Shown here piece by piece: positions 60,001-63,000 of a DNA stretch of 64,000 nt (positions within the stretch are counted from its first letter, which is position 1; every line of letters starts with the position of its first letter). Position numbers: made by a program. The stretch lies in NCBI RefSeq assembly GCF_056712565.1, contig NZ_CM160072.1. The stretch is one strand, 5' to 3'.

Positions 60001-63000
60001 GGTCTCACTCCGGAACAATTTGAAAACCAGAACCTCGCTTAGAGCAGTGTCCATATTACGAGGGTAGGATCAGTCGTTTCTTTCGCGGTAACTTTATATG
60101 ATCGCTGTGTACCAGCATCGAGAGAAGAAATTCAGGATGTATTCAACACTGAGTTCACAAGCTCTGTAGCTATTAAGTCAGTATTATTTACGTTTACGAT
60201 ACATGTTATTATCGCAGGATCTTTATCTTGGTAGTGATACTGCGAGTGGATACACCCCCACTCAGTATCTTCTATAACTATGGCTTTTGGTTCTTCAGGC
60301 ATCATACCTTCCATAACACGTTCTTGATGGATACGTAACTTGTAGTACTTCTCTGGAGATGAAGAAATTTCAACGAGTACAGATTGTAGATGTACGAAGC
60401 CTAGAAATTTAAAACACTCGGATTTTGTAGAGGATTTTAATGATAAAGTCCAGATAACAAACACGTTATTGGAACCATCACCATAATTTTTAGTGTCAAT
60501 CTTATCTACCAGCTCCTCGTTGATTAACATAGACTGATTTAGCAACTTCCGCTTCACGCCCTGAGCGGACTGTTATCGCTCTTTAGACACAGTTCCACTA
60601 GGGGAGAGGATCAGCGCTTCCCACGTAGGGACACTATAGTAACTATCACCACATGCAGTAGGGAAGCTCAAACCAAATTTATGTAGCCAGCTCCTATTGG
60701 TGGTCATTCTGGTGGTCTTGACAGGAAGATAACTCTGGTTTAGCTTACTTATTAGCCACTTACTGGCAAAGGCGATCCCAGTCAGAGGAGCCAAATTCAA
60801 AAAAGCCTGCTTTCGAGCAGGCTTTTTACTTTCTAATTACCAACGCTCTTAAAACATCTGTCTTGAACCAGAACTAATTTGCACAGGCATTCCCGATCGA
60901 TGTTGCAACGCAGCATTTGCGCGATTTACATCAACTTCTTGCCCGTTGATAAACGCCCGCAAAGATGGGGTTACCGGCAATGGCACTTTTCGGTCAGACT
61001 CATATTCTGCACGATTGCGCGACAGCGGCTCATGAACTTCCAGCCACTTTGAACCATCCGGTTCCGTTGTGTATTTCACTGGCTGATCAATAATTTGTAC
61101 ACGAGTGCCTACAGGAACATTATCAAACAGATATTTGATATCGTCATTACGCAGACGAATACAGCCCTGACTTACACGGAGCCCAATACCAAAATTGGCA
61201 TTGGTACCGTGGATGGCATACAACTTGCCAATATAAATCGCGTACAGCCCCATGGGGTTATCGGGCCCCGCAGGAACAAATGCGGGCAAACTCTCCCCTC
61301 GTTTCGCATATTCGCGCCGGGTGTTCGGCGTTGGCGTCCAGGTTGGTGCTTCTTGTTTACGTTCAACGGTAGTCACCCAGTTACGCGGGGTTTCTCGCCC
61401 AGCCTGGCCGATACCAATAGGAAAGACTTCCACTGTATTACTGTCTGGCGGATAGTAATAAAGACGCATTTCAGCGACGTTAACCACAATCCCTTTACGA
61501 ACAGTGGCGGGCAAAATCAGTTGCTGCGGAATGGTGAGTTGTGAGCCAGGCTTCGGCAAAAAAACATCAGCGCCCGGATTCGCTTCCAGCATATTACTTA
61601 ACCCTTGCCCGTATTGTGCGGCAAAAGTCTCCAGCGGCTGAGTATTGTGATCAGGAACAGTTACAGTAAGCGACTGCCCCACTAAACGGCTACCCTCTGG
61701 AGGTAATGGATAAGTTACCGCCAGGCTATTTTGGCTGGCAAAAAGCAGAGCAAATGAGCAAAGAATATTTACACGACGCATCATGTCCCTTTCCTAAGTC
61801 GCGAATACTATCCGATAAGTATAGCTTTTATCAGACTTTTCGTTTTTAGCTGTTCAAATCAGAAGTCGTATTCCCCGGTAGAACAATATTACTGGCAGCA
61901 AGTTCGCCCATGTTGTTGTATATCGCACAAGCAGCTTCGATGATGGACATCGCCAGAGCTGCACCACTCCCCTCACCTAAACGCATATCCATATTGAGAT
62001 AAGGCTCCAGCCCCAAATGCGAGAGCGCTATACGCGCGCCTTTTTCTGCCGACAAGTGAGAAGGAATGAGATACGGTTTGATTGCAGGAGACATCTGGCA
62101 GGCTGCGAGCGCAGCAGCATAAGAAAGAAATCCATCCAGCAACACGGGTAAACCGCAGGAAGCAGCACCTAACATCACTCCAGCTATTCCGACCAAATCA
62201 AATCCACCCACTTTTGCCAGGACATCAACACCATCCTGAGGATTTGGTTGATTCAACGTAATCGCCCGACGCACAACATCAATTTTATTAGCCAGTTTAT
62301 CTGTCGGCAGGTTTGCGCCAATCCCAACCACTTCTTCAGGATCCCGGCCAGTGATTGTGCTGACTATTGCCGCTGCCGGTGTCGTGTTTGCCATCCCCAG
62401 TTCACCTACACCAAACAGCGTGACACCGTTTTTTGCCAGCTCCCGCGTATAACATATGACGTCCAAAAGCAACTTTTCAGCCTGACGGCGACTCATTGCC
62501 GGAGCTGAAGCAATATTGCCGCTACCTCGTGCGACACGCATGTTGATAAGCCCGGGGATAGGCTCAGCAGTATCAATACCAACATCAATTACGTGGACGT
62601 TAGCGCCCGCTTGTGCTGCCAGCACACACACGCCGGTTGTTCCACGGGTCATATTTTCAGCCTGTATGGCTGTCACTTCTTTTGGAGAAATAGCGACCCC
62701 TTCCTCCCAGACGCCGTGATCGGCACACATAACCAGTACTGCTTTTTTGCCCACATGCGGTATGCCATTCAACCCCGGCATTCCTGCCAGTTGTATGGCA
62801 AGCGCCTCCAGCTTTCCCAGGCTACCAACAGGTTTGAGTAACCCGTCAACATGCCGTTGTGCACGCGACATAGCGGCAGAATTGATGGCTGGGATCGTAT
62901 TCAGTAAATCGGCAAGTATTTGCATGTCACGTCTCTTTATAGCAGTGCCAGCAGGAAAACCAGTTCACCAAACTCTATGGCTGCTCCCAGCGTATCGCCC

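What the first reader, a model, noticed from the sequence alone, without database searches (positions are those of the whole stretch)
60043..60777. Unexplained AT-rich ~0.7 kb segment with an orphan ORF just inside attR
Between the last IS fragment and the right direct repeat the composition shifts to clearly AT-rich DNA. It contains one minus-strand ORF (60132-60557; 132 aa from its first ATG at 60530) with no motif I recognise. It is the only stretch of the island not accounted for by clb genes, int or IS remnants. It could be a remnant of the original integrating element, a small accessory gene, or non-coding DNA.
Basis: seen in the sequence. Interest (0 to 1): 0.35.

Follow-up and report, generated by a model that had tools for sequence, protein, structure and literature searches.

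The report
Broken phage-defence gene at island end
The "orphan ORF" at the right edge of the colibactin (pks) island is not a gene: it is the first third of a Hachiman-type phage-defence nuclease gene cut off by an IS3 element, followed by the conserved end sequence of the conjugative element the island descends from, so it is ordinary decay debris that also records the island's origin.

Summary
The segment and ORF exist as described. The window is identical to E. coli Nissle 1917 here, and 277 E. coli genomes carry the segment at 99% identity or more. The ORF is a chimera.

- **60043-60072:** still IS3 (right terminus at 60072).
- **60073-60305 (minus strand):** the first ~77 of 243 codons of a HamA-like nuclease gene. 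A TGA at 60132-60134 replaces a family-invariant Trp.
- **60306-60557:** the ORF's N-terminal 84 codons are the conserved non-coding leader of that gene. It shows no codon periodicity and has in-frame stops in four related lineages.
- **60503-60693:** spacer of the ancestral element.
- **60694-60777:** the conserved 3' end of ICEKp/ICEEc1-type elements. In ICEKp1 this region was shown to carry the integrase promoter of the excised circle.
- **60778-60794:** the 17-bp direct repeat.

All of 60073-60794 is 97-98% identical and colinear to the right end of a Citrobacter koseri ICE. There hamA and hamB are intact, next to SIR2-HerA, ArdC and a virB T4SS. Klebsiella-context pks loci share the same hamA'-IS3 junction, so the truncation is old.

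Verdict: pseudogene remnant plus known att/promoter arm. Low interest.

The parts
59842..60072 (+). 3'-terminal fragment of an IS3 copy (C-terminal end of the transposase plus the right terminus).
   Evidence: 95% identical to IS3 copies annotated 'IS3-like element IS3 family transposase' in K-12 and others, with matches ending exactly at 60072. RefSeq annotates 'IS3 family transposase, incomplete' here. Homology to the intact C. koseri hamA breaks at 60071/60072.
60073..60305 (-). hamA' pseudogene: the first ~77 of 243 codons of a HamA-like (Hachiman effector nuclease) gene. The start is the ATG at 60305 or 60302. The gene is cut at its 3' side by IS3, and the nuclease core (D136/E150/K152) is missing.
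   Evidence: Full-length 243/244-aa homologues align from ORF residue 85 through the stop to the IS boundary. The remnant is amino-acid-identical to C. koseri P0181 apart from the stop. Variable columns by codon position are 19/8/51 of 78, p=1.6e-13.
60132..60134 (-). Secondary nonsense mutation: TGA in place of TGG (Trp57, invariant in the family).
   Evidence: TGG is found in strain BCE049, in Klebsiella-context pks loci and in all intact homologues. The 163-aa TGG version occurs in 947 collection blocks.
60306..60502 (-). Conserved non-coding leader/promoter region of hamA.
   Evidence: 69-86% nucleotide identity to the region upstream of intact hamA in E. cloacae, Salmonella and a metagenome, and 89% in E. 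coli LR-29-1. No codon periodicity: 28/26/34 of 65, p=0.29. In-frame stops in four lineages.
60132..60557 (-).
   Evidence: PGAP annotated nothing under the segment in every full-length, 100%-identical RefSeq row shown.
60503..60693 (.). Spacer of the ancestral ICE between the hamA leader and the 3'-end arm. No function is assigned. It contains a ~50-bp block (60505-60555) also found downstream of TIR genes in other islands.
   Evidence: Colinear with the C. koseri ICE, with 10 differences in 191 bp. Otherwise pks-specific in E. coli. The 50-bp block is described.
60694..60777 (+). Conserved 3'-end arm of asn-tRNA ICEKp/ICEEc1-type elements. It holds the tandem motifs TTGGTGGTC (60697-60705) and CTGGTGGTC (60709-60717), and a candidate int promoter of the excised form (TTGACA 60718-60723, 17 nt, TAGCTT 60741-46).
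   Evidence: 80-91% identical at the right ends of unrelated asn-tRNA islands, with conservation starting sharply at the first motif. Matches the ICEKp1 primers and probe. The ICEKp1 3'-end promoter was shown experimentally (PMC13023037). The same motif pair lies on the attL side at 6507-6527.
60778..60794 (+). 17-bp direct repeat (attR core), identical to the 3' end of tRNA-Asn plus one base.
   Evidence: Identical to 6381-6397.
60800..60827 (+). Hairpin terminator of the target tRNA-Asn gene, displaced to the attR side by integration. It lies outside the island.
   Evidence: Terminator-like site with 12 pairs followed by a T run. The same flank follows an unoccupied tRNA-Asn in BCE049 (100% over 73 bp). 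The mechanism is described for ICEKp1.
6507..6527 (+). attL-side copy of the tandem motif (TTGGTGGTC-N4-CTGGGGTC), between tRNA-Asn and int.
   Evidence: This flank is 91% identical to the HPI-type int flank in about 2000 E. coli genomes.

Best explanation
The segment is the surviving right end of the ICEKp/ICEEc1-type integrative conjugative element (ICE) from which the pks island descends.

That ICE carried a two-gene Hachiman-type defence operon, hamA (243-aa PD-(D/E)xK nuclease) and hamB (758-aa helicase), as the last cargo before its attachment site. An IS3 copy inserted into hamA at about codon 77. Everything between the IS cluster next to clbA and that point was lost. This includes the rest of hamA, hamB and, in E. 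coli, the mobilisation genes.

What remains is, in order:
- hamA' (60073-60305);
- its non-coding leader (60306-60502);
- a spacer (60503-60693);
- the conserved 3'-end arm (60694-60777);
- the 17-bp repeat (60778-60794).

In the E. coli lineage a TGG-to-TGA change then hit an invariant Trp. The leader happens to be open in frame, and that creates the 132/141-aa ORF.

The remnant cannot work as a nuclease, because the catalytic D-E-K core and the helicase partner are gone. The only part likely to retain function is the arm. By homology to ICEKp1 it provides the promoter that drives int once the element is circular, and probably integrase arm-binding repeats.

**Shown here:** homology, colinearity, the breakpoints, the coding versus non-coding signatures, and the HamA fold and HamB partner in relatives.

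**Inferred:** the order of events, promoter and arm function in pks, and anti-phage activity of the intact system.
For: - **Intact homologues.** Intact 243/244-aa homologues begin at ORF residue 85 and align through the TGA to the IS3 end. In the BCE049 allele, TGG extends the ORF to the IS.
- **Colinearity with C. koseri.** C. koseri loci L018 and L019 match window 60071-60803/60832 at 97.0-97.7% with intact hamA and hamB. The next genes are SIR2-HerA, ArdC and a coupling protein, and in ICEs sharing that coupling protein a virB T4SS follows.
- **Partner helicase.** The partner is HamB, with PADLOC scores of 8e-58 and 8e-57.
- **Coding versus non-coding.** hamA' shows a coding signature and the leader does not. 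The leader has in-frame stops in relatives.
- **IS3 boundary.** The IS3 terminus is at 60072.
- **Age of the junction.** The same junction occurs in Klebsiella-context pks loci at 99.4-99.5% identity.
- **Ongoing decay.** Further decay alleles exist: an IS2 insertion and other truncations.
- **The arm.** It is conserved at the ends of unrelated asn-tRNA islands. It matches the ICEKp1 primers and probe. The ICEKp1 3'-end promoter is shown experimentally in PMC13023037. Auvray 2021 notes that the endogenous pks int promoter is replaced by the tRNA promoter on integration.
- **Literature model.** Wami 2021 proposes that the E. coli pks island arose by ICE degeneration.
Against: - The HamA assignment rests on fold and gene neighbourhood, not sequence profiles. 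Pfam HamA (PF08878) hits only 3 of 60 family members, weakly. PADLOC HamA models and PDB sequence searches find nothing. Foldseek TM-scores are only 0.42-0.48.
- The 84-codon leader is open in frame in pks, C. koseri and Dickeya. By composition alone that has probability about 0.002, so an N-terminally extended isoform in this sub-lineage is not excluded.
- No sigma-70 consensus site passed the scan in 60000-60860. I could not map the published ICEKp1 -35/-10 boxes or the transcription start onto the window.
- There are no transcription data.
- I did not find an element carrying both clb and intact hamAB, so the order of events is inferred.
Confidence: 0.88

Rival explanations
1. The ORF (c2475, 132-141 aa) is a genuine small accessory gene of the pks island that encodes a novel protein.
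For: - The ORF is longer than chance predicts.
- It is conserved at 99% identity or more in 277 E. coli genomes.
- It is annotated as a hypothetical protein in CFT073, UTI89 and clone D i14.
- The upstream frame is also open in C. koseri and Dickeya.
Against: - Conservation within E. coli is no greater than that of the surrounding island.
- The N-terminal 84 codons show no codon periodicity (p=0.29). They carry stops in LR-29-1, E. cloacae, Salmonella and metagenome relatives.
- All substitutions there relative to C. koseri change the amino acid.
- The C-terminal 57 residues are a fragment of a 243-aa fold, ended by a nonsense codon at an invariant Trp.
- PGAP does not call it in any of the full-length, 100%-identical RefSeq records listed.
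- Some strains disrupt it further with IS insertions.
- No Pfam, PHROG or NCBIfam hit, and only a weak PADLOC one (E=0.017).
Confidence: 0.04
2. The remnant is retained because it still does something in cis or trans. One option is that the hamA promoter/leader drives antisense transcription across IS3 into the 3' end of clbA. Another is that a 56-residue HamA N-terminal peptide interferes with incoming Hachiman systems.
For: - The leader is conserved among distant Hachiman loci at 69-89% identity, so it is probably a real regulatory region.
- It is intact in pks and points towards clbA.
- The segment differs from C. koseri at only 2 of 233 bp (hamA') and 3 of 197 bp (leader).
Against: - The low divergence is equally explained by recent common ancestry. 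The neighbouring spacer differs at 10 of 191 bp and the arm at 1 of 84 bp.
- The scan found no promoter consensus.
- A nonsense mutation and further IS hits are tolerated.
- The remnant lacks the nuclease core (D136/E150/K152) and most of the fold.
Confidence: 0.05
3. The truncated gene belongs to a separate nuclease-helicase defence family that only resembles Hachiman, and is not a HamA.
For: - Sequence profiles for HamA fail.
- Identity to solved HamA is only 7-12%.
- Many defence systems pair a PD-(D/E)xK nuclease with an NTPase (title and abstract of bioRxiv 10.1101/2025.07.10.664194).
Against: - The partner scores 8e-58 on HamB models over most of its helicase core, far above any other family.
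- Gene order, the overlap of the two genes and their sizes fit HamAB.
- Published work describes great sequence diversity of HamA (PMC13064477 abstract).
Confidence: 0.08

Closest known systems
Hachiman defence system, HamA effector nuclease (E. coli ECOR31 HamAB, PDB 8VX9/8VXY; Tuck et al., Cell 2024, PMC12278908)
   Same: Intact relatives of the remnant share several features with HamA. They are about 243 aa and sit immediately upstream of a HamB-type helicase gene, overlapping it. They have an invariant D...E-x-K nuclease motif. Their best structural match is HamA.
   Different: In the window only ~77 of 243 codons survive, with a nonsense codon, no catalytic core and no hamB. The family is also so divergent that the Pfam HamA and PADLOC HamA profiles do not recognise it.
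3' end and P3'end promoter of ICEKp1/ICEEc1 (asn-tRNA ICEs; Nucleic Acids Res 2026, PMC13023037)
   Same: Window 60694-60794 shares the same 17-bp core. It matches ICEKp1 primers and the attR/attP probe almost base for base. It holds the same position relative to int in the circular form. It is conserved across ICEKp-type and other asn-tRNA islands.
   Different: Promoter activity has not been tested for pks, and I could not place the published transcription start or boxes on the window. The E. coli pks island has lost the conjugation module, so the arm may be a relic in practice.
Right-end variable (cargo) region of ICEKp elements (Lam et al. 2018, PMC6202445) and the ICE-degeneration model for the pks island (Wami et al. 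2021, PMC8461471)
   Same: The remnant lies where ICEKp-type elements carry their variable cargo, between the mobilisation module and the right repeat. The C. koseri relative shows that layout intact. This fits the published view that the E. coli pks island is a degenerated ICE.
   Different: In my searches the literature does not mention a Hachiman remnant, or use it as a marker of the donor element.
IS3 insertion pseudogenes
   Same: An IS3 right terminus abuts the broken reading frame at 60072/60073.
   Different: Only the 3' ~230 bp of this IS3 copy is left, and other IS3-family fragments follow. The original insertion and its target duplication can therefore no longer be reconstructed.

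Membership tests
Hachiman HamA | Encoded next to, and co-oriented with, a HamB (DEAD/DExH) helicase gene | tested here: met
   Met for the intact relatives. A 758-aa gene overlaps the 3' end of the 243-aa gene in the Salmonella, metagenome, C. koseri and E. coli LR-29-1 loci; in the E. cloacae locus it follows a frameshifted 226-aa copy after a 160-bp gap. PADLOC HamB scores are 8e-58 and 8e-57. In the window itself hamB is absent (deleted).
Hachiman HamA | HamA (DUF1837) fold with a PD-(D/E)xK nuclease core | tested here: met
   [not shown]
Hachiman HamA | Catalytic D / E-x-K residues present | tested here: not met
   D136, E150 and K152 are invariant in 60 family members. The window copy ends at about residue 77, so it has none of them. 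It is a pseudogene, not a functional member.
Hachiman HamA | Match to the curated sequence profiles (Pfam PF08878 HamA; PADLOC HamA models) | tested here: not met
   No Pfam or PADLOC HamA hit for P0006, P0007, P0008 or P0181. Pfam HamA is matched weakly (best E 0.005) by 3 of 60 family members.
Hachiman HamA | Anti-phage activity dependent on nuclease and helicase | not testable with these tools
   Requires cloning of an intact locus (for example C. koseri L018 9500-13002) and phage challenge.
ICEKp/ICEEc1-type asn-tRNA element, 3' end | Direct repeat identical to the 3' end of tRNA-Asn, with a P4-type integrase gene next to the tRNA at the other end | tested here: met
   The 17-bp repeat lies at 6381-6397 and 60778-60794. 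A 423-aa ORF at 6558-7829 is annotated as a tyrosine recombinase/integrase.
ICEKp/ICEEc1-type asn-tRNA element, 3' end | Conserved 3'-end sequence shared by ICEKp families | tested here: met
   ICEKp1 primers F6 and FattR and the attR/attP probe match window 60695-60794. The arm is 89.5% identical to the end of a K. pneumoniae record typed MPF_T by PLSDB. It is conserved in six unrelated islands.
ICEKp/ICEEc1-type asn-tRNA element, 3' end | Promoter in the 3' end that drives int after circularisation | not testable with these tools
   Shown for ICEKp1 and ICEEc1 by reporter assays and 5'-RACE (PMC13023037). In the window there is only a candidate (TTGACA-17-TAGCTT), and the consensus scan found no site.
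ICEKp/ICEEc1-type asn-tRNA element, 3' end | Conjugation/mobilisation module (virB T4SS, mobBC) | not tested
   I did not scan the whole window for it. It is present in ICEs that share the coupling protein of the C. koseri relative. It is reported absent from the typical E. coli pks island (Wami 2021; Auvray 2021).
IS3 | High nucleotide identity to IS3, ending at the element's terminus | tested here: met
   94.8-95.2% identity to annotated IS3 copies in 3970 genomes, with alignments ending at window 60072.

The most novel reading that the evidence does not exclude
The conserved ~200-nt hamA leader (60306-60502) could be a still-active regulatory element. In that case the remnant would be maintained because it fires minus-strand transcription through IS3 into the 3' end of clbA, modulating the phosphopantetheinyl transferase needed for colibactin. 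Alternatively it could yield a short HamA N-terminal peptide that interferes with Hachiman complexes. Neither transcription nor translation could be examined here.
Probability: 0.04. Interest if true: 0.5.

Novelty: new member of a known kind. Interest (0 to 1): 0.22.

Why it matters
It removes a long-standing "hypothetical protein" (c2475 of CFT073 and its copies in more than a thousand assemblies) from the list of possible pks accessory genes.

It also gives a precise molecular fossil for the island's origin. The donor was an ICEKp/ICEEc1-type element whose last cargo was a Hachiman system, as still seen intact in Citrobacter koseri. The IS3 break is shared by the E. coli and Klebsiella colibactin elements, so it dates to before they diverged.

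It marks which bases at the right end are likely to matter for excision and integration: the 84-bp arm plus the repeat. That is useful for engineering or stabilising pks in probiotic Nissle 1917.

As a by-product it exposes a HamA subfamily of 211 clusters that current Pfam and PADLOC profiles miss. Hachiman systems of this type are therefore probably under-counted.

Tried and rejected
- **Profile searches of the ORF.** Pfam, PHROGs and NCBIfam gave nothing. PADLOC gave only a weak PDC-M44B hit (E 0.017), which I treat as noise.
- **PDB sequence searches.** Searching with one protein and with a 60-sequence profile gave no meaningful hit. Only fold comparison worked.
- **Rfam on 59900-60900.** Only sub-threshold hits, driven by the terminator hairpin. 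I rejected an RNA-gene reading.
- **Promoter scan.** No site.
- **75-aa ORF at 60573-60800 (minus strand).** Rejected as spurious. It starts outside the island and reads across the direct repeat and arm.
- **ClbA-based scan of species-representative genomes,** intended to sample pks islands of other genera. No confirmed relative. I obtained the cross-genus evidence instead from exact-protein look-ups.
- **PemK/MazF link.** The 90% protein cluster holding the ORF also holds PemK/MazF toxins. BLASTP shows no similarity, so this is a clustering artefact.
- **Look-ups that failed.** The Dickeya 345-aa protein is not on record. One walk from the C. koseri locus failed because I trimmed the wrong end of a minus-strand gene. 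The repeat returned other ICEs with the same coupling protein rather than the same contig. As a result I did not learn whether that C. koseri ICE carries clb.
- **ICEKp1 promoter boxes.** I tried to extract the published -35/-10 boxes from the paper and its supplement. They are only in figures.
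Full report
**1. Where we are.** The window is the colibactin (pks/clb) island of E. coli. The 758 bases around the finding are 100% identical to Nissle 1917 and present at 99% identity or more in 277 complete E. coli genomes. RefSeq annotation of Nissle gives the following order: clbB, clbR, clbA, two IS3-family transposase pseudogenes, an unannotated gap, then ldtA, cobT, cobS and cobU. The window has three tRNA-Asn genes. The one at 6321-6396 is followed by a 423-aa integrase ORF.

**2. The observation.**
- The direct repeat is 17 bp, at 60778-60794 and 6381-6397.
- GC content is 0.411 for the segment, against 0.522 for the window. The low values are confined to 60073-60502 (0.35-0.40). 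60503-60777 is 0.45-0.48, and clbR-clbA is lower still at 0.345.
- The left limit is 30 bp too far left. Alignment to IS3 copies (95%) runs to exactly 60072.

**3. The ORF is a fragment of a larger gene.**
- A search of 5.8 billion proteins found full-length relatives of 226-243 aa in Enterobacter, Salmonella and metagenomes. Cluster look-up added 243/244-aa proteins from Citrobacter koseri, Enterobacter and E. coli.
- All of them start at ORF residue 85 (MMPEEPK; ATG at window 60305 or 60302). They stay aligned through the ORF's stop codon, down to the IS3 end.
- In strain BCE049 the stop is TGG, and PGAP calls a 163-aa protein that terminates inside IS3. That Trp is invariant in the family, so TGA at 60132-60134 is a secondary nonsense mutation.
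- The TGG allele is the one found in Klebsiella-context pks loci and some E. coli (947 collection blocks).
- Other alleles show further IS hits.

**4. The N-terminal 84 codons are not coding.**
- The DNA upstream of the true start is conserved: 69-86% to E. cloacae, Salmonella and a metagenome, and 89% in E. coli LR-29-1.
- Variable columns there are spread evenly over codon positions (28/26/34 of 65; p=0.29). In the hamA' part they are 19/8/51 of 78 (p=1.6e-13).
- In-frame stops occur in four of those lineages.
- The frame is open in pks, C. koseri and Dickeya. The few substitutions between pks and C. koseri there are all amino-acid-changing.
- Family members are 229-248 aa long and align from the MSEE/MPEE start.
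- I conclude that this is a conserved leader/promoter region. An extended isoform in this sub-lineage has perhaps a 10% chance.

**5. What the gene was.**
- In every intact locus except E. cloacae, the 243-aa gene overlaps the start of a 758-aa DEAD-box helicase gene. In E. cloacae a frameshifted 226-aa copy is followed by the helicase gene after a 160-bp gap.
- That helicase scores 8e-58 and 8e-57 on PADLOC HamB models.
- The small protein has no Pfam, PADLOC or PDB sequence match. Pfam HamA is touched weakly by only 3 of 60 relatives.
- An exhaustive HMMER search found 211 clusters of relatives. In an alignment of 60 of them, D136, E150 and K152 (GFDFH...FGEAK) are invariant.
- An AlphaFold2 model from that alignment has pLDDT 93.9.
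- In Hachiman, HamB is the DNA-damage-sensing helicase that releases the HamA nuclease (PMC12278908).
- The gene was therefore a divergent hamA. The window retains ~77 of 243 codons, none of the catalytic residues, and no hamB.

**6. The whole segment is the right end of an ICE.**
- Two C. koseri contigs match window 60071-60803/60832 at 97.0-97.7%, colinearly. The order is direct repeat, arm, spacer, leader, then intact hamA and hamB.
- Differences from C. koseri by part are as follows:

| Part | Differences |
|---|---|
| hamA' | 2 of 233 bp (one is the nonsense change) |
| leader | 3 of 197 bp |
| spacer | 10 of 191 bp |
| arm | 1 of 84 bp |
| direct repeat | 0 of 17 bp |

- Similarity ends at the IS3 terminus.
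- Beyond hamB the C. koseri element has SIR2-HerA (PADLOC 2e-51 and 1e-168), ArdC, a 248-aa gene and a coupling protein. In other ICEs with the same coupling protein, a virB-type T4SS lies beyond it. This is the ICEKp/ICEEc1 layout, with defence cargo in the right-end variable region.
- Loci with Klebsiella-type flanks (the same flanking genes as K. pneumoniae strain 176) carry clbB-clbR-clbA, IS3-family elements and the same hamA'-IS3 junction at 99.4-99.5% identity. The truncation therefore predates the spread of the colibactin element between genera. This agrees with the published ICE-degeneration model (PMC8461471).
- Of 5,426 complete E. coli genomes, 284 match this hamAB, but only 4 have it intact. 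One example is LR-29-1, where it sits in a dusC island with serine recombinases and an anti-phage dCTP deaminase.

**7. The arm.**
- The last ~100 bp before and including the repeat match the ends of unrelated islands at asn-tRNA genes in several hundred E. coli genomes at 80-91%.
- In an alignment of six such ends, conservation begins sharply at ATTGGTGGTCATTCTGGTGGTCTTGAC and runs to the core. The cargo to the left is unrelated.
- The tandem motif (60697-60717) recurs on the attL side between the tRNA and int (6507-6527), in the same orientation. BCE049 lacks one repeat through a 12-bp indel.
- A 2026 study of ICEKp1 showed three things. Integration puts int under the tRNA-Asn promoter. The excised circle uses a sigma-70 promoter in the element's 3' end. 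The 3' ends are conserved across ICEKp1-14 and work likewise in ICEEc1 (PMC13023037).
- That study's primers and attR/attP probe match window 60695-60794 almost exactly. Auvray et al. made the same point for pks.
- 60694-60777 is therefore a known cis element.
- I propose TTGACA (60718-23), 17 nt, TAGCTT (60741-46) as the promoter, and the tandem repeats as integrase arm sites. Both are inferences. The consensus scan found no promoter.
- The hairpin at 60800-60827 is the displaced tRNA terminator.

**8. What remains unexplained.** The spacer 60503-60693 is simply part of the ancestral ICE, with no assigned function. A ~50-bp block in it (60505-60555) recurs just downstream of TIR-domain genes in CP4-like islands in about 94 genomes.

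**9. Verdict.** This is an ordinary product of island decay: a hamA pseudogene and its leader, plus a known att/promoter arm. It is new only in that the ORF had not been identified, as far as my literature searches show. It also belongs to a HamA subfamily that current profiles miss.

Noticed in passing
window 60505-60555; L015 4001-4047; L016 4001-4066: A ~50-bp block of the spacer recurs at 93.6% identity about 85 bp downstream of TIR-domain genes in CP4-like islands of about 94 E. coli genomes. It may be a shared cassette-boundary sequence at defence-gene hotspots.
   Followed up: partly
[not shown]
   Followed up: partly
L003, L010, L012, L013, L017, L018, L020-L022 (right ends of asn-tRNA islands): The genes directly inside the conserved 3'-end arm are usually defence-related. 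Examples are a CHAT-domain protein, TIR proteins and HamAB plus SIR2-HerA; retron Eco8 lies a few kb inside, and ThsB-TIR sits in the variable region of related ICEs. A T6SS cluster appears in one case. The right end of these elements behaves as a defence-cargo hotspot.
   Followed up: partly
window 60698-60709 versus L002 (strain BCE049): A 12-bp indel removes one of the two TGGTGGTC repeats of the arm in BCE049. That island sits at a different asn-tRNA gene, next to cbl and nac.
   Followed up: no
protein cluster of ORF 60132-60557 (P0161-P0175): The 90%-identity cluster that holds c2475 also contains 110-aa PemK/MazF toxins from Klebsiella and Enterobacter. BLASTP finds no similarity at all, so this is a clustering artefact that could mislead automated annotation.
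   Followed up: yes
L024-L026, position equivalent to window 59750: pks loci with Klebsiella-type chromosomal flanks carry an additional, intact IS3-family element (409-aa transposase). It is inserted into the IS remnants between clbA and hamA'.
   Followed up: no
L003 2654-2771 and 5001-5174 (E. coli EC31): Two copies of the arm plus direct repeat lie 2.3 kb apart next to ldtA. This suggests tandem or nested asn-tRNA islands.
   Followed up: no
window 58094-58825 (clbA) as query: A peptide-pattern scan of 100,044 species-representative genomes with ClbA returned 123 pattern matches but no confirmed relative. pks-bearing genomes seem to be absent from, or missed in, that collection.
   Followed up: no
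window 60800-60827: A strong hairpin terminator sits immediately after the right repeat. It is the terminator of the target tRNA-Asn gene, displaced by the insertion. This leaves int at the other end exposed to read-through from the tRNA promoter, as described for ICEKp1.
   Followed up: partly
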